Part shown: one piece after another, positions 16,417 through 26,365 of the stretch
How the letters are laid out: each line of letters starts with the position of its first letter
Numbering within the stretch: position 1 is the first letter of the stretch
Source: Longimicrobiaceae bacterium
Lineage (GTDB): Bacteria; Gemmatimonadota; Gemmatimonadetes; Longimicrobiales; Longimicrobiaceae
Assembly (NCBI GenBank): GCA_036389055.1
Contig: DASVQR010000021.1
Coordinates: 20,750 to 84,749 of the forward strand
Length of the DNA: 64,000 nucleotides
Direction of reading: 5' to 3'
Program-made: the position numbers and the translations under genes
Notes under the pieces: model-generated
What the model was told of the DNA's origin: nothing
Database searches by the model: none
The model's input: only the letters and a program-made list of their open reading frames with translations

Positions 16417-16465
16417 TTCACTTTCGCACTCCCGCACTCACGCACTTTCGCACTTCCCTTCACTG
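16417..16465. repeat. 8-nt periodic micro-tandem array (GCACTYNC x about 6)
   Basis: TTCACTTTC GCACTCCC GCACTCAC GCACTTTC GCACTTCC CTTCACTG. The last unit contains the stop of gene 16460-17233. It is related to the array at 29680-29727. Confidence 0.75.
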
Positions 16466-17233
16466 CGGCCGCGTCCACACCGCGATCACCCCGCACGCCG
16501 AGGTGCGGCGGTTGAACTCCGGCGGCACCTGCGAGGCCCCGCGGTAGATCTCCAGCCCCTCCACGTCGCCGGCCGCGATCTCGTCGATGTTGAAGCCGGG
16601 GCCGATCAGCTGGCCGTCCACGAAGTACTGCACCGGGCAGGGCCGGGCCCCCGCGCGCGACATGGTCACGTACGCGTCGCCGCGCATCCCGTTGGGCGCG
16701 AAGCTCAGCCCGGACACCGTGCGCAGCGCGTCGCTGAGGTACTGCGGGCGGCGCCGCTCGATGTCGGCGCGGGTGAGGAAGGCGCCGAGCCCGTTCCTGC
16801 GGCGCCGGTCGAAGCCGGCGCGCTCCAGGTACTCGGCCCCCCAGTTGCGCCGCTTTGCGTCCACCCGGATCGCCGCCACCGGGATCGCCTCGATCTCCAG
16901 CTCGAAGGCGAGCTGCGTGGACTGCCCGGCCTTGAGGTCCGCCAGCTTGAGGCGGGTGGAGTAGCCCAGGCGCCGCACCTCCACCGTCTGCACCCCGGCC
17001 GGCACCCCGGCCAGGCGCAGCCGGCCGCCGGCGTCGGTGACCGCCGCGATCCCGGTGCCCACCACGGAGACCCGCGCCCCCATCACCGGCTGCCCCGATT
17101 CCTTGGAGACGACCGACACCACCAGCGCGGAGGAGCCGGTCTGGGCGCGCGCCTCCCCGGCCGCGAGCGAGCAGAGGGCCAGGAGGCCGGCCGCGAGGCG
17201 CCGGAGCGGTGGGGCGAGGTGGAGCGCGGTCAT
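16460..17233 (-). CDS. exported CarboxypepD_reg + Plug-like protein (short paralog, no barrel)
   Basis: Start at MTALHLAPPLRRLAAGLLALCSLAAGEARA. It has one CarboxypepD_reg domain and then a Plug-like domain ending GDVEGLEIYRGASQVPPEF...CGVIAVWTRP. Confidence 0.7.
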   Translation of the reverse strand: MTALHLAPPLRRLAAGLLALCSLAAGEARAQTGSSALVVSVVSKESGQPVMGARVSVVGTGIAAVTDAGGRLRLAGVPAGVQTVEVRRLGYSTRLKLADLKAGQSTQLAFELEIEAIPVAAIRVDAKRRNWGAEYLERAGFDRRRRNGLGAFLTRADIERRRPQYLSDALRTVSGLSFAPNGMRGDAYVTMSRAGARPCPVQYFVDGQLIGPGFNIDEIAAGDVEGLEIYRGASQVPPEFNRRTSACGVIAVWTRPQ

Positions 17234-17302
17234 GGCGGGGCGGGGTGCGGGGGTGAGCATCGCTGCGCGCACATGGAAGGATGCGGGGGAAACCCACCCG
17301 GG

Positions 17303-19222: not shown

Positions 19223-19585
19223 ATGCAGCGTACGAGGTTCATCGAGCACCGCGGCCAGCGCATCCTGCTGCTGGACTACTCCGGCATCCGCGATGCGGCG
19301 GAGGCGCTGCGGGAGATCGAAGCGTCCAGGGAGGTGGTGCGCGCGCAGGCGCCGGGCTCCCTGCTCACCCTCACGCACGTGCGCGACGCCCGCTACAACG
19401 CGGAGGTGATCCAGGCGCTCAAGGCGCTGGCGGAGCACAACCGGCCCTTCGTGCGGGCCGGCGCGGTGGCGGGGATGTCGGGCCTCCACCGCGCGGTGTT
19501 CAGCACCATCCTGCTCTTCACCCGGCGGGCGCTCAGGGCGTTCGACGACGTGGAGGCGGCCAAGGACTGGCTGGCCGAGCAGTAG
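19223..19585 (+). CDS. hypothetical protein, STAS/SpoIIAA-like fold suspected
   Basis: 120-aa ORF with normal composition. The fold assignment rests on overall resemblance only. Confidence 0.55.
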   Translation: MQRTRFIEHRGQRILLLDYSGIRDAAEALREIEASREVVRAQAPGSLLTLTHVRDARYNAEVIQALKALAEHNRPFVRAGAVAGMSGLHRAVFSTILLFTRRALRAFDDVEAAKDWLAEQ

Positions 19586-19605
19586 ACCCCAGGCATTGAT
19601 CCAAA

Positions 19606-19649
19606 ACACGCGCGGAGCGGGGCGCCCGGTGGCGCCCCGCTCCGCGTGT
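19606..19649. terminator. bidirectional terminator hairpin between convergent genes
   Basis: ACACGCGCGGAGCGGGGCGCC-cggt-GGCGCCCCGCTCCGCGTGT, a stem of about 19 bp. It is flanked by AAAA on the plus strand, which reads TTTT after the hairpin on the minus strand. Confidence 0.7.
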
Positions 19650-19682
19650 CCGACGAGGTCGGGGGACCCAGTGCGTGGTGGA

Positions 19683-19946
19683 TCAGTTGGCGATGGTGTC
19701 TCCGGACTCGATCGGCTCCTGACCGCCGCAGGAACACACCGGCTTGTTCGCCCAGAACGAACAGGTGCAGGTGCAGTTCCCCGTTGCCGTGCACGAGCCG
19801 CCCGGGCAGGTGACCGAGCAGCGGTTCTCGGTGAACGCGTACGCACGCTGGACGAGGTTCGGCGAGAAGAACAGCCCGGCTCCTGCGACGAAGGTCAGGA
19901 GGGCGAGCCTGAAGGTGATGGCCCTGCGGCGAGTGGTGGCTGTCAT
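19683..19946 (-). CDS. exported cysteine-rich small peptide (87-aa precursor, about 50-aa mature part, 8 Cys)
   Basis: The sequence is MTATTRRRAITFRLALLTFVAGAGLFFSPNLVQRAYA/FTENRCSVTCPGGSCTATGNCTCTCSFWANKPVCSCGGQEPIESGDTIAN. GGAGG lies 5 nt before the ATG. The signal has an RRR n-region and an AYA cleavage site. It is the last gene before a strong terminator. Confidence 0.6.
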   Translation of the reverse strand: MTATTRRRAITFRLALLTFVAGAGLFFSPNLVQRAYAFTENRCSVTCPGGSCTATGNCTCTCSFWANKPVCSCGGQEPIESGDTIAN

Positions 19947-20013
19947 GGGACCTCCGGTGGATGAATGTTTGAGGTGGGTTCTGCCCGACGGTGGATCCCC
20001 CGATCCCTGCGGC

Positions 20014-20598
20014 TCAGCGCTCCCCGGCCCCGGCCGGCGAGCGGTGGAGCCACTCCAGAATGTCCTGCTTTGCCAGCGCGTTCAGCGGGCCCGCGTAGAC
20101 CCGCCGGACCGCCCCGCCCTCCACCAGCAGGGTGGCGGGCGTGGCTTCCACCCGCAGGCGGTTGCTCATCGTCGCGGAGTCCACGGCCACCACCTCCACG
20201 CGCGCGTCGAGCCCACGCCAGAAGCCCGCGGCCCCCGGGATCCCGTCCAGCGTCACGGCGAGGGCACGGACCCGCCGCCCCTCGGCCGAACCGAGCAGGT
20301 CCACCCAGTTCCACAAGTTGCCGCGGGTGGGCTCGCATGCCGGATCGAACACGAACAACACGGCGCGCTCCAGGCCGCCCAGCTCCACCGCCGCGCCGCC
20401 GTCCAGCGGCCGGGCCACCGCGTCCTTCAGCGGGCGCCTCGTCGATACCGATTCCGTGGGCTCGCCTCGGTAGCGCATGGCCGCGCCCAGCTCGCGGACG
20501 GCCGTCCCACCCCGCCACACCAGCATCGCCGCGAGGAGGACCAGCGCCGCGGCGGCCGCCTTCCACCTCCTCCCCGGGGATCGGACGTCCGCTGTCAT
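20014..20598 (-). CDS. membrane-anchored thioredoxin-fold (TlpA/redoxin-like) protein lacking a canonical CxxC
   Basis: Start at MTADVRSPGRRWKAAAAALVLLAAMLVW (N-terminal TM). VLFVFDPACEPTRGNLWNW sits at the position of the redoxin active site (CEPT). The ATGA start/stop overlaps the upstream gene. Confidence 0.55.
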   Translation of the reverse strand: MTADVRSPGRRWKAAAAALVLLAAMLVWRGGTAVRELGAAMRYRGEPTESVSTRRPLKDAVARPLDGGAAVELGGLERAVLFVFDPACEPTRGNLWNWVDLLGSAEGRRVRALAVTLDGIPGAAGFWRGLDARVEVVAVDSATMSNRLRVEATPATLLVEGGAVRRVYAGPLNALAKQDILEWLHRSPAGAGER

Positions 20599-21854
20599 CG
20601 GCGGTATACCTCCAGGTGGTCGACGGCCATGTCGTCGCGGCGGACGCCGTAGATCCGGCCGTGTCTCGCGAGCAGGGGCTCGAAGCCCTCGGGGTAGCGG
20701 AGGCTGCCGCGCGGCGTACCGGCCGGCTCGTACTCGTCCCAGGTGCGGGAGCGTCCCTCCCACTGGTCGTCCACGCTGAAGCGGCGCGCCGCCACGCCCC
20801 CATCCTCCAGCGCCAGGGCGCCGGTGAGCGCCGGGCGCGTCGCGGCGAAGTACTCCCGGTTGATGGCCTCCAGCAGCATCATCGGAATCTTCCGGCTGTA
20901 CATCCCGCGCTCCTGCGACTCGCGCAGGTTGATCAACCGCTCCCGCCGCGTGACCGATTCGTGCTTCCAGGGGCGCGTCACCCGCCGGACGGCGCGGTCC
21001 GCGCCCACGCGGTACACCTCGTACGGCCCGCCCGGGACGAACGCCACGGAGCCGTCGGGGAATGCGTCCCAGGCGGGCGCCGGGGTGAACGAGGGCGGGG
21101 CCGACCAGTGGTAGCTGGTGCTGGTCGTCCCGTAGGTGCGCTGCTCCGCCTCGATGGTGGGGATGGCGAAGTCGAGCACCGTGTCGCGGGCCTGTCCCAG
21201 CGTGTCCAGCCGCACCAGGTAGCCGCGCTGCCGCGACGGGGGGACGGTCAGGGGATCGCTGCGCACCTCGATGACGAAGCCGTCCCGGTACGCCCGCAGC
21301 CGCTGCCCGGTGCGCACCACGCCCTGCTTCCCTTCCGGGAGCGGGCGCAGCGTCTCCACCACCTTGCCCTCCGGCGTCAGGACGGTGAGGCGCTGCTGCT
21401 CGTAGTCCCACACCGCCAGGCGACCGTTCCAGGGGAGCGTCACCAGGCTGGAGGGCGACTGGTACTCCCCCGGTCCGTCCCCGCCCCGGCCGAAGTCGAA
21501 GAGGAACTCGCCCGCCGCGTCGAACGCCTTGATCCGGCGCTCCATGCGGTCCAGCACGTACACGGTGTCGCCGCCCGCGCTGGTCGTCACGTCGGCGACC
21601 TGGCCGAACAGGTAGCGCTCGTCGCCGTCCGCGGCGCCCACGGAAAACACGCGGCGCGCGGCGGGGAGCTCCGGCGCGCGCTCCGCGGGGAGCGCTTCGC
21701 CCGCGTCCACGCTGGCGACGGGACTGGCGGCGACGGGGTTCGCGTACAGCGGGGAGGCGAGCTCGGCCTCCATCTTCTCGTTGCCGCACCCGGCGAGCGC
21801 CGCGGCCATGCCGAGCGCGAGCAGGGAGGGCGAAGCTTTCCTGAGGGCGATCAT
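20595..21854 (-). CDS. lipoprotein, 6-bladed beta-propeller (BF3164/DUF5128-like)
   Basis: Start at MIALRKASPSLLALGMAAALAGC (lipobox LAGC). It has repeated blade-like segments and the FGRGGDGPGEY motif I associate with this family. ATGA overlaps occur at both ends. Confidence 0.6.
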   Translation of the reverse strand: MIALRKASPSLLALGMAAALAGCGNEKMEAELASPLYANPVAASPVASVDAGEALPAERAPELPAARRVFSVGAADGDERYLFGQVADVTTSAGGDTVYVLDRMERRIKAFDAAGEFLFDFGRGGDGPGEYQSPSSLVTLPWNGRLAVWDYEQQRLTVLTPEGKVVETLRPLPEGKQGVVRTGQRLRAYRDGFVIEVRSDPLTVPPSRQRGYLVRLDTLGQARDTVLDFAIPTIEAEQRTYGTTSTSYHWSAPPSFTPAPAWDAFPDGSVAFVPGGPYEVYRVGADRAVRRVTRPWKHESVTRRERLINLRESQERGMYSRKIPMMLLEAINREYFAATRPALTGALALEDGGVAARRFSVDDQWEGRSRTWDEYEPAGTPRGSLRYPEGFEPLLARHGRIYGVRRDDMAVDHLEVYRR

Positions 21855-22429
21855 CGGAGTGCTGCGGTGGTCGGGAGGGTGGGAGGTGCGAAGGTCGCGG
21901 CGATCCGGCGGGCCTCCGCCGGGGTGGGCAGCTCGCGCAGGCTGTGCAGCGCCACGGAGTCGCCCTCCACGAGGATCCAGCGGGCGGCGTGAAGCCCCGC
22001 CCCCTTGCCGGGGGTGGCGACCGACACCCGCGCGGCCGCGGCTCCACGCGCGCAGCCGGCGATCTCGGGCGAGAGCGAGTACCAGCGGACGCCCCCCGAC
22101 GCGCCGAGGGCGGCGCACAGCCGCGCTTCTTCCGCGGCCGGAACGGAGTCGGCGCGCACCAGCACGGCGAGGCCGCCGGCCGGCAGCGCCATGTGAGGCG
22201 AGACCGCCAGCGGCTGGCGGAACAGCAGCGGCGACCACGCGCGCGCCTTCTGCTCCATCTGCACGCGGCGGGGGCGGAACTCGGCGTGCGACTCGATCCC
22301 CTTCACGCCCATCCACAGCCCGGCCGCGAGGATGCCGAGCACCAGGACGGCGAAGCGCGCGCCGTCGAGCGCGCCGAGGTCGGGAAGCGTGAACAGCAGG
22401 GCGAGCCTGCGGCGGAGTGCCTGCGGCAT
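21851..22429 (-). CDS. membrane-anchored hypothetical protein (possibly a degenerate thioredoxin-like fold)
   Basis: 192-aa ORF with one TM (FAVLVLGILAAGLWMGV). Its layout resembles the 20014-20598 product, but it has no CxxC. It is the first gene of the coupled operon. Confidence 0.5.
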   Translation of the reverse strand: MPQALRRRLALLFTLPDLGALDGARFAVLVLGILAAGLWMGVKGIESHAEFRPRRVQMEQKARAWSPLLFRQPLAVSPHMALPAGGLAVLVRADSVPAAEEARLCAALGASGGVRWYSLSPEIAGCARGAAAARVSVATPGKGAGLHAARWILVEGDSVALHSLRELPTPAEARRIAATFAPPTLPTTAALR

Positions 22430-22598
22430 GGGGGGTACCGGGAAGCGGCGGGGACGATCGGAAGGGGCGGAGCGGGACGCCGGGACGGACCCGGCGCGGC
22501 GAAAAACATATGGAGGAGGCGCGGCGCGCGCAAGGGTTGTCTGGAAAGGTATGCTGCGTAGATCCGAAGCGGCCAGGGGCGAACACGAAAGCGCCCCT

Positions 22599-24209
22599 TC
22601 AGCGACCCGGTCGGCCCGGAATCGCGGGATCCAGCCTCGCCACCAGCCACCCGGTGAGCGCGCCGGTCACCTCCGGGGCGACCCGCGTGCGGTACAGGTA
22701 CATCTCCCGCCCGGGGGCGCCGTCCGGGTCCCGCAGCAGCGAGTGGGCGATGCCCGGGAGCAGGCGCACCGTCACGTCCGGGTTCCCCGCGGCCCGCAGC
22801 GCGGCGCCCAGCCTCCGGGCGTCGGCGGGGTCCACGCTGCGGTCGCGCGCGCCGTGCAGCACCAGCGCCGGAGCGCGCACCCGGCGCGCCGCCGCCACCG
22901 GGTCGTGCCGCAGGAACGAGGCGATCCACGGGTCCCGGGCCGCCCGCGCCTCCCACTCGCGCAGTTGCGCGGCCGCGGCGGAGTCCCTCACCGCCGGCGC
23001 GACCGCCGGGTCCGCCTCCACCCGGGCGCGCGTCTGGTAGCGGGCGACCGCGCGCCCCGAGTCGCCCGGGCTCGCCAGCAGCGCGACGCCGCGGAGCCGG
23101 GCATCGCCGGCCGCCAGCAACGCCGCGACCGCCCCGCCCTCGCTCCACCCCACCAGCGCCACCCGCTCCGGGTCCACCTCCCGCTGCGCGCGCAGCCAGG
23201 CCAGCGCCGCGCGGGCGTCGTCCGCCCGCTCCCCGAAGGTGGAGCCCTCGAAGCGGCCGGTGCTCGCGCCCACGCCGCGGTCGTCCAGGCGCAGCACGGC
23301 GATCCCCAGCCGTCCCAGCGTGTCGGCGATCTCCCGGAACGGGCGGTACGGCGAAGCGCCCCCGGAGCCGTCGCGGTCCTGGGGGCTGGAGCCGGAAAGC
23401 AGGAGCACGGCGGGGGCGGGGCGGCGGGCGCCGTGGGGGAGGGTGAGCGTCCCCGCCAGGACGTGGCCGCCCGGGGCGGGCACGCGCGCCTCCCGGGCGG
23501 CGTAGGGGGCGCCTGCCGGGGGGCCGTACGGGTCGCCGGGCGGCGGGGCGAGCCGCGGCGGCGGAAGGGAGAGCGCGGCCTCCGGCAGCTCCGCCACGCG
23601 GCGGACAGTCCACCCGCGGGTCGCGTTGCGGCCGCCCAGCACCCGCCCCTCCGCGTCGGTCGCCAGCCGCCACTCGTTCCCCTCCACGGTCAGCCGCACG
23701 GAGTCGCGGCCCAGCCGCTCCACGGCGACGCGGACCGGGGCGCCGGCGGGGAGGAGGAGGAGCCGCACCCCGCCGCCGCGGCGCGCGGCGGGGCTCCGCA
23801 GCGCGCGCTCCAGCAGCGCCACCGAGGGGCCCAGGTACGGCAGCGTCCCGGGGGCGGCCCGCGCCTCGCGGACCCGCGTCTCCGCGCCCCGGCGCAGCTC
23901 CGCGCGGGCCGTGCCGCCGGAGACGGCGGCCGCCAGGCGCAGCGGCGCCGGCCCCGCCGGCGCCCCGGCCGGCGCCAGCGCCGCCTCCAGGCGCGCGCCG
24001 CCGCTGCCCTCGCGCAGCGTCCAGCGCACCCGCGCCACCTCGCCGATGCGCATCTCCCCCTCCACGGGGTCGCCCGCCGCGACGCGCTCCACCAGCACGG
24101 TGTCGGCGCCGTGCGTCACCACCCACCCCTCCGCGTCCGGGGCCGGCCGGCCCGCGCACCCGGCGGCGAGGAGCGCGATCCCCGCCGCCGTCCAGGCACG
24201 CCGCGCCAC
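22599..24209 (-). CDS. alpha/beta hydrolase (S9/dienelactone-hydrolase-like) lipoprotein
   Basis: C-terminal part of ORF 22599-25967. The GTG start gives VARRAWTAAGIALLAAGC (lipobox). It has the nucleophile elbow GWSEGG and then LHGARD...GIAHS. Confidence 0.75.
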   Translation of the reverse strand: MARRAWTAAGIALLAAGCAGRPAPDAEGWVVTHGADTVLVERVAAGDPVEGEMRIGEVARVRWTLREGSGGARLEAALAPAGAPAGPAPLRLAAAVSGGTARAELRRGAETRVREARAAPGTLPYLGPSVALLERALRSPAARRGGGVRLLLLPAGAPVRVAVERLGRDSVRLTVEGNEWRLATDAEGRVLGGRNATRGWTVRRVAELPEAALSLPPPRLAPPPGDPYGPPAGAPYAAREARVPAPGGHVLAGTLTLPHGARRPAPAVLLLSGSSPQDRDGSGGASPYRPFREIADTLGRLGIAVLRLDDRGVGASTGRFEGSTFGERADDARAALAWLRAQREVDPERVALVGWSEGGAVAALLAAGDARLRGVALLASPGDSGRAVARYQTRARVEADPAVAPAVRDSAAAAQLREWEARAARDPWIASFLRHDPVAAARRVRAPALVLHGARDRSVDPADARRLGAALRAAGNPDVTVRLLPGIAHSLLRDPDGAPGREMYLYRTRVAPEVTGALTGWLVARLDPAIPGRPGR

Positions 24210-24241: not shown

Positions 24242-26365
24242 CTACTTGCTGGTGATGACGATCGCGCCCTGGGAGTGGTTGGTGCCGTAGCGGATAGTGG
24301 CGGAGGGCGCGTCTAGGTAGACGATGGAGGAGATGGTGTTCGCCTGCAGCAGCCGGAGCTCGTCCAGACCCCCCAGGCGGTTGCCGTCCAGGTACACCAC
24401 GATCTCCGACTGGCCCATCCCGGACACGGCCTGCGCGGTCCCGGCCCTGGAACCGCTGTTCGCCCCCAGCGCAGTGCTGGTGACCACCCGCTCCCCCACG
24501 ATCTCGGTGGTCGTCACCATGCCGTCGCGCCCCTTGGTGCCCAGCGACATGGACTGGAGCCCGCGGATGCGGGACCAGTCCGGGCGCAGCCGCTCGATCG
24601 CTTCCGCGGCGCTCCCCACGCCGATCGCGGCGATCTCCTCCGCGCCGATGCGTGTCCGGTCGGCGGGGGCGGGGGTGCGGGAGCTCCCCGCCACGCGCAC
24701 CTCGGCCAGCGGCACCGGGCGGCCATCCGGCCCCAGGCGCACCGGGTCCCCGGCGCGGAGGTCCTGCACGACGAGCCCGGCGGAGGCGAGCCTGACCTGC
24801 GAGCGGACGGGGGCGAGCCGGTCCGAGCGGACCTCGGCCGCCACGGCGGCCCCGGCGGGGATGCCGCAGGCCCGGTAGGCGCCCCGGGCGTCGGTCGTCG
24901 CCTCGGCGCGGCCGCCCCGCGCCCACGTGAGCAGCACCCGCGCGCCCTGCACCGGCTCGCCCGCCGGGTCGCGGACGACGCCCGCCAGCGCCGCGCCCCC
25001 GCCCGGGCAGAGCGCCGCCGCCAGCGTCGCCGCGGAGGGGACGGCCAGCTCCAGCGCGGGCGGCTCGCCGCCGCGCAGCGTCACGCCGCGCACCGGGGGG
25101 GACACGCCCAGCGCCTCCAGCGACGGGTGCGAAAAGGACACCTGGTACTCCCCCTCGGGCACGTCCTCCACGCGGAAGCGGCCGTCCGCCCCGGCCGTGG
25201 CCCGGTGCACGGTGCCGGACAGGAACACCGACGCGCCCGCGAGCGGCGCCGCGCGCAGGCTGTCGTACACGCTCCCGGCCAGCGCCAGCCGCGCCGCCGC
25301 CGGGGCGCGCGACCCCGCCACCCGGACCTCCCCGCCGGTCTCCTGGATCCCCACCAGCCGCTCCCGCACGCGGGCGGCGCCGCCGGTGGAGCCGGTCGTC
25401 TCGCGCGTGCGCTCGGTCTCGCGGGCCAGGCGGGGCATGCGGATGGCCCAGCGGCTCACCAGCCAGGCGCCGGTGGGGAGCCGCTCGAACTCCACCCGCC
25501 CGCCCAGCTTCCCTTCCGGCAGCTCGCCGGGGAGGCCCACGTAGTCGTACTCCAGCCAGCGCAGCTCCGCGCTCCCGCGGTCCAGCCAGAACACCCCGCG
25601 CACCTCGGGGACGTCGCGCCCCCGCACCGGCTCGAAGGCGAGCCCCACCAGCCCCTCCGCGCCGCCCTCGGAGACGCGGAAGCAGTGGTCGTCCAGGAAG
25701 GTGTCGGAAAGCAGGACCAGGGCGTCCGGGGCGTAGTAGAAGGTCCCGGAGGGCCCCGTCTGCACGAAGCCGCGGCGGGACAGCGAGTCGGCGGGGATGC
25801 TGGCGAAGGGGTGGGTGGTCACCGCGGTGCCGGTGCGCCGGTCGTCGCGCAGCACCCGCAGCGAGCCGGGGTCCAGCTCCCGGTCGAACCGGACCACCTC
25901 GTAGGTGGACTGGCGGGCGTCGAGGGCCCACGCGGCGGCGTTCAGCGCCTTGCGCGCCTCGGTCCACAGGGTGGCGGCCGCCTCGCCCTCCTCGGGGCGG
26001 ACCTGGCAGCGCCGCCCGGCGCGCACCGAGATCCCCGCCAGCGCCACCGCCTGCGCGGGGGCCACCAGCCGCTGCTCCACCGTCTCGCCCGCCTTCAGCG
26101 ACAGCGTGGGGGACACGGCGCTCGCGTGCCCCACGCGCTCGGCGCGCACGACGTACGTCCCCGGCGCGGGGGCGGCCAGCGAGAAGCGGCCGTCGGCGCC
26201 GGTGAGCGCCCCGGCGCGCATCTTCCCGGAGGTGTCCAGCAGCAGCACCATCGCGCCGGGGACGGGGGCGCCGCCGGACTCGGCCACGACGGAGCCGCGC
26301 ACCGCCTGGGCCGCGAGGGGGAGGGGGGCGAGCAGGCAGGCGAGCAGGAGCGCCGGACGGAGCAT
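24242..26365 (-). CDS. exported CarboxypepD_reg-repeat protein with C-terminal Plug-like domain (paralog 3)
   Basis: 707-aa ORF starting MLRPALLLACLLAPLPLAAQA (signal). It is collinear with paralogs 1 and 2. The C-terminus is strongly Plug-like (IGAEEIAAIG...EIVVYLDGNRLG...IRYGTNHSQGAIVITSK). Confidence 0.75.
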   Translation of the reverse strand: MLRPALLLACLLAPLPLAAQAVRGSVVAESGGAPVPGAMVLLLDTSGKMRAGALTGADGRFSLAAPAPGTYVVRAERVGHASAVSPTLSLKAGETVEQRLVAPAQAVALAGISVRAGRRCQVRPEEGEAAATLWTEARKALNAAAWALDARQSTYEVVRFDRELDPGSLRVLRDDRRTGTAVTTHPFASIPADSLSRRGFVQTGPSGTFYYAPDALVLLSDTFLDDHCFRVSEGGAEGLVGLAFEPVRGRDVPEVRGVFWLDRGSAELRWLEYDYVGLPGELPEGKLGGRVEFERLPTGAWLVSRWAIRMPRLARETERTRETTGSTGGAARVRERLVGIQETGGEVRVAGSRAPAAARLALAGSVYDSLRAAPLAGASVFLSGTVHRATAGADGRFRVEDVPEGEYQVSFSHPSLEALGVSPPVRGVTLRGGEPPALELAVPSAATLAAALCPGGGAALAGVVRDPAGEPVQGARVLLTWARGGRAEATTDARGAYRACGIPAGAAVAAEVRSDRLAPVRSQVRLASAGLVVQDLRAGDPVRLGPDGRPVPLAEVRVAGSSRTPAPADRTRIGAEEIAAIGVGSAAEAIERLRPDWSRIRGLQSMSLGTKGRDGMVTTTEIVGERVVTSTALGANSGSRAGTAQAVSGMGQSEIVVYLDGNRLGGLDELRLLQANTISSIVYLDAPSATIRYGTNHSQGAIVITSK

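What the first reader, a model, noticed from the sequence alone, without database searches (positions are those of the whole stretch)
19606..22429. Translationally coupled four-gene operon ending in an exported 8-Cys mini-protein: candidate disulfide-rich peptide (bacteriocin/RiPP-like) production locus
Seen in sequence:
- Four minus-strand genes sit head to tail: a TM-anchored 192-aa protein, a 6-bladed-propeller lipoprotein, a TM-anchored thioredoxin-fold protein and an 87-aa peptide.
- The first three are joined by ATGA stop/start overlaps at 21851-21854 and 20595-20598.
- The peptide gene has its own GGAGG RBS. It is followed by the strongest terminator in the window, a stem of about 19 bp plus TTTT.
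- The peptide has an RRR-containing signal ending AYA. Its roughly 50-aa mature part is ENRC-SVTC-PGGSC-TATGNC-TC-TC-SFWANKPVC-SC, with 8 Cys in CxxxC and CxC spacing. The gene is locally lower in GC than its neighbours.
- The redoxin-like protein carries CEPT instead of CxxC, so it has a single active-site Cys.

Inference: the two membrane-anchored redoxin-like proteins and the propeller lipoprotein may fold, modify or provide immunity to the exported Cys-rich peptide. I do not know a described system with this composition. No radical-SAM, LanM, YcaO or ABC exporter is present.
Basis: partly seen in the sequence, partly recalled or inferred. Interest (0 to 1): 0.7.

Follow-up and report, generated by a model that had tools for sequence, protein, structure and literature searches.

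The report
Periplasmic thioredoxin–propeller module with Cys-rich miniprotein
A soil bacterium of the family Longimicrobiaceae carries a conserved four-gene operon of unknown function: an exported 8-cysteine miniprotein, a membrane-anchored thioredoxin-type enzyme that probably handles its disulfide bonds, an NHL beta-propeller and a small 2-cysteine membrane protein.

Summary
Four minus-strand genes (A 192 aa, B 419 aa, C 194 aa, D 87 aa) form one unit. It runs from a conserved promoter-like site (about 22533-22505) to the strongest terminator in the window (19646-19603), with ATGA overlaps at A/B and B/C.

- **D** is a real gene. It has a Sec-type signal ending AYA and a 50-aa mature part whose 8 Cys are invariant in its 21 closest clusters. 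About 45 clusters at 50% identity exist; four of the five that carry a name are Longimicrobiaceae or Longimicrobium, one is Bacteroidota. No Pfam or NCBIfam family matches.
- **C** belongs to a ResA/TlpA-like thioredoxin-fold family. Orthologues in other clades keep CxxC. The window clade keeps only the nucleophilic Cys (CEPT).
- **B** is an NHL/DUF5128 six-bladed propeller with no Cys beyond the lipobox and no invariant His.
- **A** has one TM helix and two invariant Cys. No fold could be assigned, so "redoxin-like" is unsupported for A.

The cassette accompanies D in all 13 distinct loci with enough flank, in two different flanking contexts; one locus has three propellers and three peptides.

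No RiPP enzyme, exporter, protease or defence hit was found, so the bacteriocin/RiPP label is not supported. My best reading is a split NHLRC2/SOQ1-like (Trx + NHL) thiol-disulfide exchange module with its own Cys-rich client or small subunit, similar in logic to MauD and MauA.

The parts
22505..22533 (-). Promoter-like site of the operon: -35 TTGCGC (22533-22528), 17-nt spacer, -10 TATGTT (22510-22505)
   Evidence: In an alignment of six orthologous upstream regions the TTG and TA..TT columns are invariant, and the block just upstream is conserved. The generic sigma-70 scan did not call it, so it is a conserved candidate, not a proven promoter.
21851..22429 (-). Gene A: 192-aa single-pass membrane protein with a periplasmic domain carrying two invariant Cys (C105, C126)
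   Evidence: ORF and translation. The hydrophobic segment is residues 26-40. The Cys pair, the VR.DS motif and the ARW motif are invariant in 9 orthologues. No Pfam, NCBIfam or PDB homology was found. The AF2 single-sequence model is unusable, pLDDT 45.6.
20595..21854 (-). Gene B: 419-aa lipoprotein (lipobox LAGC, C23) with an NHL/DUF5128 six-bladed beta-propeller. Its start overlaps the stop of A (ATGA 21854-21851).
   Evidence: Pfam DUF5128 at E 4.5e-6, above the cut-off. The family profile hits NHL domains of TRIM3, TRIM2, TRIM71, Thin and Brat at E down to 6e-26, and the PAL domain of PAM at 5e-8. There is no Cys beyond the lipobox and no invariant His.
20014..20598 (-). Gene C: 194-aa membrane-anchored ResA/TlpA-like thioredoxin-fold protein. 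The active site is CEPT (codons 20337-20326) with a single Cys, C88. Its start overlaps the stop of B (ATGA 20598-20595).
   Evidence: The family profile hits ResA at E 3.8e-4, and C88 aligns with the first Cys of the ResA CEPC motif. Among the 9 orthologues, Thioredoxin_2 is hit by 4, AhpC-TSA by 3 and Redoxin by 2. NCBIfam ResA and TrbB are also hit. Orthologues in other clades carry CQVC, CSVC, CAVC or CGPC. The TP of the cis-Pro loop is invariant.
19951..19955 (-). GGAGG ribosome-binding site of D
   Evidence: Read directly from the sequence, 4 nt upstream of the ATG at 19946.
19683..19946 (-). Gene D: 87-aa precursor. The Sec-type signal peptide is residues 1-37 (19946-19836). The 50-aa mature 8-Cys miniprotein is encoded at 19835-19686.
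   Evidence: 21 homologous clusters have all 8 Cys invariant. An exhaustive profile search finds about 45 clusters at 50% identity. AF2 with a 45-sequence alignment gives pLDDT 71, an N-terminal helix 3-27 and four beta strands (42-47, 50-55, 58-63, 68-73) that carry all the Cys. No PDB fold or sequence match was found.
19603..19646 (-). Intrinsic terminator: a 16-bp GC stem at 19646-19611, then CGTG and TTTT at 19606-19603. It is shared with the convergent 120-aa gene at 19223-19585.

Best explanation
This is a Longimicrobiaceae-specific periplasmic module built around thiol-disulfide exchange on a dedicated client.

Shown:
- D has a Sec-type signal peptide and a predicted four-stranded beta miniprotein with 8 Cys.
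- C is a membrane-anchored ResA/TlpA-type thioredoxin-fold protein.
- C is made in translational coupling with an NHL six-bladed propeller (B) and a single-pass 2-Cys membrane protein (A).

Inferred:
- The only family-wide invariant Cys of C is the N-terminal nucleophile. I take this to mean that C attacks disulfides of D, by isomerisation, reduction or covalent holding, rather than oxidising D de novo.
- The Cys-free propeller probably acts as the binding platform, and perhaps the final partner, for D.
- The Cys pair of A is a candidate redox partner. It could resolve the mixed disulfide in the clade where C has lost its second Cys.

In logic this is a split version of the fused Trx-like + NHL proteins NHLRC2 and SOQ1. 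It also parallels MauD acting on the Cys-rich small subunit MauA, which docks on the propeller subunit of methylamine dehydrogenase. The physiological output is unknown.
For: - Linkage: the cassette accompanies D in all 13 distinct loci with enough flank. These are the window, L001, L002, L003, L004, L006, L010, L011, L012, L018, L021, L022, L024 and L025. L021 has A-C-D plus a second propeller instead of B. Propeller identity falls to 44% and peptide identity to about 45%.
- Independent contexts: the cassette sits next to EndoV and an acetyltransferase in the window clade, next to EndoV in L010 and L025, and between HtrA and tig-clpP-clpX in L012 and L024 (L006, L021 and L022 also have HtrA upstream).
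- Coupling: the 4-nt B/C overlap is conserved in all nine loci with called genes that carry B. The A/B overlap is conserved in most.
- Only possible client: in the window, B has no Cys apart from the lipobox Cys, A has 2, C has 1 and D has 8.
- C is ResA-like. The first Cys and the cis-Pro TP are invariant, while the second Cys is present in only about half of the loci.
- B is an NHL propeller without invariant His or Cys.
- L011 has three propellers and three peptides but one A and one C.
- A Trx-like domain facing the cup of an NHL propeller is an established architecture. In SOQ1 it is membrane-anchored in an oxidising compartment, with a beta-stranded Cys-pair domain as proposed exchange partner (PMC6107167; 10.1101/2021.03.16.435614).
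Against: - There is no direct evidence that C touches D or that D binds B. Co-amplification is seen at one locus only.
- The fold of A is unknown.
- The window's C lacks a resolving Cys. No CcdA/DsbD electron donor lies in the 64-kb window. One CcdA gene lies about 1.1 kb downstream of the cluster in L021 only.
- By sequence, C is closer to ResA than to the DipZ/NHLRC2 Trx domain. Neither the B nor the C profile retrieved NHLRC2 or SOQ1 chains from the PDB.
- A general DsbA could in principle oxidise D without help.
- Expression evidence is limited to two contigs of relatives in soil metatranscriptomes.
Confidence: 0.45

Rival explanations
1. D is a secreted antimicrobial or signalling peptide, bacteriocin-like and disulfide-rich. 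A and C fold it, and the propeller lipoprotein gives immunity or acts as its receptor.
For: D is a small, exported, disulfide-rich peptide with an invariant Cys scaffold and fast-evolving loops; dN/dS of the mature part reaches 0.9 in some pairs. D has its own strong RBS and terminator. Peptides and propellers are amplified together in L011.
Against: - No ABC/PCAT exporter, GG leader, protease or modifying enzyme is present in any locus.
- Gemmatimonadota are diderms, so Sec export ends in the periplasm.
- The cassette sits at conserved chromosomal positions across lineages with dS 0.2-0.9, which fits vertical inheritance.
- Overall dN/dS of D is no higher than that of A or C.
- There is no PADLOC hit.
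Confidence: 0.15
2. D is a periplasmic, metallothionein-like metal-binding peptide that binds, for example, Cu(I). Its thiols are kept reduced by the ResA/TlpA-type reductase C, much as TlpA prepares ScoI and CoxB for copper insertion.
For: D has CxC and CxxxC motifs, with 8 Cys in 31 residues. The family of C is of the reductive ResA/TlpA type. A CcdA/DsbD_TM gene lies close to the cluster in L021. Sec-exported Cys-rich copper-binding peptides, the bufferins, set a precedent (PMC11626156).
Against: - No copper or other metal homeostasis genes occur next to any locus.
- The window clade's C has a single Cys and no nearby electron donor.
- AF2 predicts an ordered four-stranded sheet with Cys on every strand, as expected for disulfide stapling.
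- The bufferin enzymes MNIO (DUF692) and DUF2063 are absent.
Confidence: 0.12
3. B and D form a two-subunit periplasmic enzyme like methylamine dehydrogenase or quinohemoprotein amine dehydrogenase. D would carry a Cys- or Trp-derived cofactor, and A and C would be maturation factors.
For: The gene logic resembles mauB-E-D-A: a propeller, a membrane protein, a membrane-anchored Trx-like protein and a Cys-rich small subunit with a signal peptide (10.64898/2026.03.05.709764). Trp65 is invariant in the closest 21 clusters.
Against: - The Trp is not conserved across the wider family, where F, L or I take its place.
- No MauG, QhpD or QhpG-like maturase is present.
- B has no invariant His or Cys and belongs to the NHL class, which is mostly binding modules.
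- No NCBIfam MauD hit was obtained.
- L021 lacks B.
Confidence: 0.08
4. The genes are neighbours only through inherited synteny and have unrelated functions.
For: Most loci come from one bacterial family, and part of the flanking synteny (EndoV) is also conserved.
Against: The cassette is intact in two different flanking contexts. Translational coupling is conserved. D is the only Cys-rich product next to a dedicated thiol-disulfide protein. The rearranged loci L011 and L021 keep A, C, D and a propeller together.
Confidence: 0.05

Closest known systems
NHLRC2 / SOQ1 (fused thioredoxin-like + six-bladed NHL propeller + beta-stranded C-terminal domain)
   Same: Both pair a TlpA-type thioredoxin-fold domain with an NHL six-bladed propeller. 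In SOQ1 the pair is membrane-anchored and sits in an oxidising extracytoplasmic compartment, with a small beta-stranded Cys-pair domain as proposed disulfide-exchange partner (PMC6107167; 10.1101/2021.03.16.435614).
   Different: Here the parts are separate, translationally coupled polypeptides. The active site is CxxC or CxPT, not CCINC. By sequence C is nearest to ResA and B to generic NHL repeats, and neither profile retrieved NHLRC2 or SOQ1 chains. An 8-Cys secreted miniprotein and a 2-Cys membrane protein are encoded alongside.
Methylamine dehydrogenase maturation (mauB-mauE-mauD-mauA)
   Same: In both, a propeller subunit, a membrane protein, a membrane-anchored thioredoxin-like protein and a small, signal-peptide-bearing, disulfide-rich subunit are encoded together. 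MauD is needed for the small subunit's disulfides (10.64898/2026.03.05.709764).
   Different: The MADH propeller has 7 blades (from memory), whereas B is a 6-bladed NHL type. MauE is polytopic with a CXC site, whereas A is single-pass. There is no MauG or TTQ, the Trp of D is not conserved family-wide, and no MauD model was hit.
ResA / TlpA / CcmG membrane-anchored periplasmic thiol-disulfide oxidoreductases
   Same: C shares the fold family, the N-terminal membrane anchor, the position of the active-site Cys (the ResA motif is CEPC, the window has CEPT) and the cis-Pro loop.
   Different: The window protein is monothiol. The presumed client is a dedicated miniprotein rather than apocytochrome c, ScoI or CoxB. 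No CcdA lies nearby in the window.
Bufferins (Sec-exported Cys-containing periplasmic RiPPs)
   Same: Both are small precursors with Sec signal peptides and conserved Cys that act in the periplasm (PMC11626156, PMC12452194).
   Different: Bufferins are defined by the MNIO (DUF692) and DUF2063 modifying enzymes. Neither is present here.
Aryl-sulfate sulfotransferase with DsbL/DsbI (from memory, not tested)
   Same: Both combine a periplasmic six-bladed propeller with a dedicated thiol-disulfide pair encoded in the same operon.
   Different: There the Dsb pair oxidises the propeller enzyme itself. Here the propeller has no Cys apart from the lipobox Cys.

Membership tests
Thioredoxin-fold, TlpA/ResA-like thiol-disulfide oxidoreductase (protein C) | Thioredoxin fold detectable by profile | tested here: met
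   The family profile hits ResA at E 3.8e-4 over about 110 residues. Pfam Thioredoxin_2, AhpC-TSA and Redoxin are hit by 4, 3 and 2 of 9 orthologues, and NCBIfam ResA at 6.6e-5. The window protein alone gives no hit.
Thioredoxin-fold, TlpA/ResA-like thiol-disulfide oxidoreductase (protein C) | CxxC active site at the N-terminus of helix 1 | tested here: not met
   The window has CEPT. Its clade has CxPT, and L010 and L011 have CRPG. Orthologues in seven distinct other loci (L004, L006, L012, L021, L022, L024, L025) have CQVC, CSVC, CAVC or CGPC. Only the first Cys is invariant.
Thioredoxin-fold, TlpA/ResA-like thiol-disulfide oxidoreductase (protein C) | cis-Pro loop and N-terminal membrane anchor | tested here: met
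   T153 and P154 are invariant and align with the ResA Pro loop. The hydrophobic segment is residues 14-28.
NHL / DUF5128 six-bladed beta-propeller (protein B) | Match to the NHL/DUF5128 profile | tested here: met
   Pfam DUF5128 scores 26.5 bits against a 22.9-bit cut-off. The profile hits NHL domains in PDB down to E 6e-26. The number of blades was not verified by a structure model.
Peptidyl-alpha-hydroxyglycine lyase (PAL)-type catalytic propeller (protein B) | Zn-binding His triad (from memory) | tested here: not met
   No His is invariant among 15 orthologues. The PAL match covers NHL blades only.
Thioredoxin fold (protein A) | Any profile or fold match to a thioredoxin-like model | tested here: inconclusive
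   There is no PDB hit. One of 9 orthologues hits Redoxin at E 0.14. hhalign against C gives probability 0.3%. The AF2 single-sequence model has pLDDT 45.6.
RiPP biosynthetic cluster | A recognised modifying enzyme (rSAM, LanB/M, YcaO, MNIO and similar) plus a leader peptide | tested here: not met
   Pfam and NCBIfam scans of all four products and the gene tables of 13 loci show none. The N-terminus of D is a Sec-type signal, not a leader.
Bacteriocin or microcin locus | Dedicated exporter and immunity gene, with patchy mobile distribution | tested here: not met
   No exporter is present in any locus, and the chromosomal synteny is conserved. An immunity function cannot be tested with these tools.
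Methylamine dehydrogenase (mau) system | MauD, MauA and MauB family matches, and a conserved Trp pair for TTQ | tested here: not met
   No NCBIfam mau model is hit. The single Trp is not conserved family-wide.
Tat substrate (peptide D) | Invariant twin arginine in an S/T-R-R-x-F-L-K-like motif | tested here: not met
   Orthologues have QR, HR, RK or SR at this position.
NHLRC2/SOQ1 family | Fused Trx-NHL-CTD architecture with a CCINC motif | tested here: not met
   The genes are separate, the motif is different, and neither profile retrieved NHLRC2 or SOQ1 chains from the PDB. The resemblance is one of function and architecture only.

The most novel reading that the evidence does not exclude
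The operon may be a naturally split Trx-NHL machine of the NHLRC2/SOQ1 type that encodes its own client. That would give the first genetically defined substrate for this widespread but mechanistically obscure architecture. The monothiol CxPT clade would serve as a built-in trap for the mixed-disulfide intermediate. Alternatively, the 8-Cys beta miniprotein family, which has no Pfam or NCBIfam model and no PDB fold match, may be a new class of periplasmic disulfide-rich effector with its own folding catalysts.
Probability: 0.3. Interest if true: 0.75.

Novelty: new variant of a known kind. Interest (0 to 1): 0.58.

Why it matters
Trx-like + NHL propeller proteins are conserved from bacteria to humans. 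NHLRC2 is essential and mutated in FINCA disease, and SOQ1 controls photoprotection in plants, yet what these proteins act on is poorly known. This operon places the two parts next to an obvious Cys-rich candidate client, in a form that can be expressed and trapped biochemically, so the question becomes directly testable. It also defines an unannotated family of exported 8-Cys miniproteins, with about 45 clusters at 50% identity, in Longimicrobiaceae, an abundant but almost uncultured dry-soil and biocrust lineage. Finally, it adds an example of client-specific disulfide catalysts in a phylum whose oxidative folding pathways are uncharted.

Tried and rejected
- **Tat export:** the twin arginine is not conserved.
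- **TTQ/CTQ-type cofactor subunit:** the Trp is not conserved in the wider family, and no maturase is present.
- **PAL-like amidation by B:** some distant peptides end in Gly, but the near clade ends in TIAN and B has no invariant His.
- **Lanthipeptide reading of the Ser/Thr/Cys-rich core:** no dehydratase or cyclase is present.
- **Anti-phage defence:** no PADLOC hit.
- **A as a diverged paralogue of C:** hhalign probability is 0.3%.
- **AF2 of A from a single sequence:** pLDDT 45.6, unusable.
- **Foldseek of the D model against the PDB:** nothing below E 5. The sequence profile of D against the PDB gave only chance hits.
- **Context of distant peptide subfamilies (P0104-P0124):**
  - The alignment was too divergent for the locus finder.
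  - A 3-sequence alignment found nothing in the metagenomes.
  - The second metagenome scan gave one more Longimicrobium-type locus only.
- **Distant DUF5128 paralogue arrays (L013-L016):** they carry no Trx-like gene or Cys-rich peptide.
- **Literature:** no paper mentions DUF5128 or NVEALA.
- **P0097 (1520 aa):** a false positive of the peptide profile.

Full report
**1. Observation**

The region holds four minus-strand genes:
- A, 21851..22429, 192 aa
- B, 20595..21854, 419 aa
- C, 20014..20598, 194 aa
- D, 19683..19946, 87 aa

The long overlapping ORFs on both strands are artefacts of the roughly 74% GC content.

A/B and B/C overlap by ATGA, at 21854-21851 and 20598-20595. D follows a 67-nt spacer and has a GGAGG 4 nt before its ATG.

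The hairpin after D has a 16-bp, 15-GC perfect stem at 19646-19611, followed by CGTG and TTTT. The 101-nt region folds at -61.6 kcal/mol with z = -6.5. In my own scan of both strands it is the strongest hairpin-plus-TTTT in the window, -43.3 against -35.4 kcal/mol for the next.

GC dips to 66-68% over D, against 72-76% over A-C. The Cys/Thr/Ser/Asn-rich composition of D may account for the dip; I did not test this.

Upstream of A, six orthologous loci share a conserved block whose invariant columns spell TTG, 20 nt, then TA..TT. This corresponds to TTGCGC at 22533-22528, a 17-nt spacer and TATGTT at 22510-22505. I take it as a candidate promoter. With the terminator it would make the four genes one transcription unit.

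**2. The four products**

*D, the peptide.*
- It has a positively charged N-terminus, a hydrophobic core at residues 14-28 and AYA at 35-37.
- The RR is replaced by QR, HR, RK or SR in orthologues, so a Sec signal is more likely than Tat.
- The mature 50-aa part (5109.6 Da reduced, pI 4.4) carries Cys at residues 43, 47, 52, 58, 60, 62, 71 and 73.
- AF2 with a 45-sequence alignment gives mean pLDDT 71, and about 80 over the core. It predicts a helix at 3-27 and four beta strands (42-47, 50-55, 58-63, 68-73), so every strand carries Cys.
- Foldseek found no related fold in the PDB. Pfam, NCBIfam and PDB sequence searches found nothing.

*C, the thioredoxin-fold protein.*
- It has an N-terminal hydrophobic anchor at residues 14-28 and a single Cys, C88.
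- The window protein alone matches no model. A profile of nine orthologues hits B. subtilis ResA at E 3.8e-4 over about 110 residues, and C88 aligns with the first Cys of the ResA CEPC motif.
- Of the nine orthologues, four hit Pfam Thioredoxin_2, three hit AhpC-TSA and two hit Redoxin. NCBIfam gives ResA and TrbB, not MauD.
- The first Cys and the TP of the cis-Pro loop are invariant.
- The second Cys is present as CQVC, CSVC, CAVC or CGPC in L004, L006, L012, L021, L022, L024 and L025.
- It is replaced by CxPT in the window clade and by CRPG in L010 and L011.

*B, the propeller.*
- It has a lipobox (LAGC) and a Pfam DUF5128 match above the cut-off.
- A profile of 15 orthologues hits NHL-repeat domains of TRIM3, TRIM2, TRIM71, Thin and Brat down to E 6e-26, and the PAL domain of PAM at 5e-8.
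- It has no Cys apart from the lipobox Cys, and no invariant His. That argues against a PAL-type Zn site and means B is not itself a client of a disulfide catalyst.

*A, the 2-Cys membrane protein.*
- It has one hydrophobic helix at residues 26-40 and two invariant Cys, C105 and C126.
- No homology was found in Pfam, NCBIfam or PDB. There was none to C by hhalign either.
- The only structure prediction allowed was single-sequence, and it failed with pLDDT 45.6.
- Calling A redoxin-like is therefore unsupported.

**3. Conservation and linkage**

The peptide has 21 close clusters with all 8 Cys invariant. An exhaustive profile search of 1.84 billion representatives found 46 clusters at 50% identity, one of them a false positive. 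Of the five that carry a name, four are from Longimicrobiaceae or Longimicrobium. A few 150-170-aa forms carry the Cys-rich domain followed by a roughly 100-aa extension; the one that carries a name (P0127) is from Bacteroidota. Across this wider family the eight Cys stay at 90% or more, but the Trp does not.

Pairwise dN/dS of D is 0.2-0.65. That overlaps the range for A and C; B is lower, 0.17-0.50. Within D the Cys scaffold is fixed and the loops vary.

Wherever a contig with D extends far enough, the cassette is there. A-B-C-D is found in the window, L001 (=L017), L002, L003, L004, L006, L010 (=L020), L012, L018, L022, L024 and L025. Short contigs L005, L007, L008, L009 and L019 show C directly upstream of D.

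Three arrangements are informative:
- **L021** has A-C-D followed by a second-type propeller and lacks B.
- **The Longimicrobium clade** (L004, L006, L012, L019, L021, L022, L024) adds that second propeller lipoprotein, B2, right after D. Where the contig extends upstream (L006, L012, L021, L022, L024) an HtrA-like protease lies directly before A.
- **L011** reads A-D'-B-C-D-B-B-D, with three peptides and three propellers but one A and one C.

Flanking genes differ between clades. The window clade has EndoV and an acetyltransferase, and L010 and L025 have EndoV. L012 and L024 lie between HtrA and tig-clpP-clpX. Upstream of the cassette, L011 has EAL, response-regulator and DUF2059 genes. The cassette is therefore kept as a unit, not merely carried along by synteny.

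Distant DUF5128 paralogues at about 28% identity form arrays without any Trx-like gene or Cys-rich peptide. The module is thus a specialised offshoot of that propeller family.

The window comes from a biocrust metagenome. A 289-nt contig about 88% identical to D, and a 415-nt contig about 90% identical to B, occur in two soil metatranscriptome runs. This is weak evidence of expression in relatives, because DNA carry-over cannot be excluded.

**4. Mechanism**

What is shown:
- The four gene products carry export or membrane-anchor signals that would put them in the periplasm.
- They are encoded in one conserved, translationally coupled unit.
- One is a ResA/TlpA-type thioredoxin-fold protein and one is an NHL propeller.
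- D is the only Cys-rich product.

What is inferred:
- Only the nucleophilic Cys of C is universally kept, so the essential chemistry is probably attack on a disulfide. That means isomerisation, reduction or covalent holding, not de novo oxidation.
- An 8-Cys peptide with a CxCxC strand has 105 possible four-disulfide isomers. That is a plausible reason for a dedicated catalyst.
- The Cys-free propeller is most simply a binding platform or partner for D. Its co-amplification with D in L011 fits this.
- The invariant Cys pair of A could resolve the mixed disulfide in the monothiol clade.

Two characterised systems supply the logic.
- **NHLRC2 and SOQ1.** They fuse a TlpA/DipZ-like Trx domain to a six-bladed NHL propeller, with the active site facing the propeller cup. 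SOQ1 is membrane-anchored in the oxidising thylakoid lumen. It has a beta-stranded C-terminal domain whose Cys pair is proposed to exchange disulfides with the Trx domain (PMC6107167; 10.1101/2021.03.16.435614).
- **The mau cluster.** The membrane-anchored thioredoxin-like MauD is needed for the six disulfides of the small subunit that pairs with the propeller subunit of methylamine dehydrogenase (10.64898/2026.03.05.709764).

These are resemblances in how the system works, not memberships. Neither the B nor the C profile retrieved NHLRC2 or SOQ1 chains, and no mau model was hit.

**5. Rivals**

- **Bacteriocin or RiPP.** There is no modifying enzyme, leader, protease or exporter. The cell is a diderm. 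Inheritance looks vertical, and there is no PADLOC hit. I give this 0.15.
- **Metal-binding thiolate peptide kept reduced by C.** The CxC motifs, the reductive family of C and a CcdA/DsbD_TM gene about 1.1 kb downstream of the cluster in L021 speak for it. Against it, no metal genes flank any locus, the window has no CcdA, the window's C is monothiol, and the model of D looks like a disulfide-stapled sheet. I give this 0.12.
- **Quinoprotein-like two-subunit enzyme.** The Trp is not conserved family-wide and no maturase is present. I give this 0.08.
- **Mere synteny.** I give this 0.05.

**6. Novelty and verdict**

I found no Pfam, NCBIfam or PDB entry for the peptide family. I found no paper for DUF5128-type propellers, and none describing this combination.

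The components belong to known kinds: a ResA/TlpA-like protein, an NHL propeller and a disulfide-rich miniprotein. The pairing of Trx with NHL is also known, in fused form. The split, operon-encoded arrangement with its own Cys-rich candidate client and a 2-Cys membrane partner appears undescribed, so I rate it a new variant of a known kind.

**7. Limits**

- The genomic context of the distant peptide subfamilies could not be fetched.
- No complex prediction was possible.

Noticed in passing
window 22505-22560 (minus strand): A conserved non-coding block lies upstream of gene A: GCATACCTTTCCAGACAACCC, then TTGCGC, 17 nt and TATGTT. The TTG and TA..TT columns are invariant in six loci. It is a candidate promoter with a possible regulator site, and the generic sigma-70 scan did not call it.
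   Followed up: partly
L006, L012, L021, L022, L024 (upstream of A); L004, L006, L012, L019, L021, L022, L024 (downstream of D): In the Longimicrobium clade an HtrA/DegP-like protease (Trypsin_2 + PDZ) sits directly upstream of A. A second, distantly related NHL/SGL propeller lipoprotein (B2, about 400 aa) directly follows D. Neither is present anywhere in the 64-kb window.
   Followed up: partly
L021:6619-7536: A CcdA/DsbD_TM membrane electron-transporter gene lies about 1.1 kb downstream of the cluster in the one locus that lacks propeller B. It could be the electron donor for the ResA-like protein, or it could be unrelated.
   Followed up: no
L011:4363-10502: This locus has an expanded cassette, A-D'-B-C-D-B-B-D, with three divergent peptides (8-9 core Cys) and three propellers but a single A and a single C.
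   Followed up: partly
proteins P0122, P0125, P0127, P0128, P0129: These are 150-170-aa relatives of the peptide. The same Cys-rich domain is followed by a roughly 100-aa extension with no Pfam match. One comes from a Bacteroidota MAG. Their genomic context could not be retrieved.
   Followed up: partly
proteins P0104-P0124 (for example P0105, P0111/P0130): A second peptide subfamily from Longimicrobiaceae and Longimicrobium has an acidic insert (…SADPExGExCTC…). Many of its members end in Gly. Its context is unknown.
   Followed up: no
window 19223-19585 (+): A convergent 120-aa gene with no Pfam match shares the bidirectional terminator with D. A 120-aa gene at the same position in L003 and a 127-aa one in L010 are probably counterparts; their sequences were not compared.
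   Followed up: no
L013-L016: Other metagenome and MAG contigs (taxon not given) carry tandem arrays of 3-5 distant DUF5128 propeller paralogues with no Trx-like gene or Cys-rich peptide. In L013 and L014 they lie next to transposase (rve) genes.
   Followed up: partly
window 16460-17272 and 24242-26365 (minus strand): CarboxypepD_reg + Plug (TonB-dependent-receptor-like) proteins flank the region, and the same families flank the orthologous loci. An alpha/beta hydrolase (S15/S33/S9-like) ends at 22599, just upstream of the operon.
   Followed up: partly
runs X25, X26 laid on window 19300-22700: Soil metatranscriptome assemblies contain contigs 88-90% identical to D (19717-19960) and to B (21103-21514). 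This suggests that relatives transcribe these genes.
   Followed up: partly
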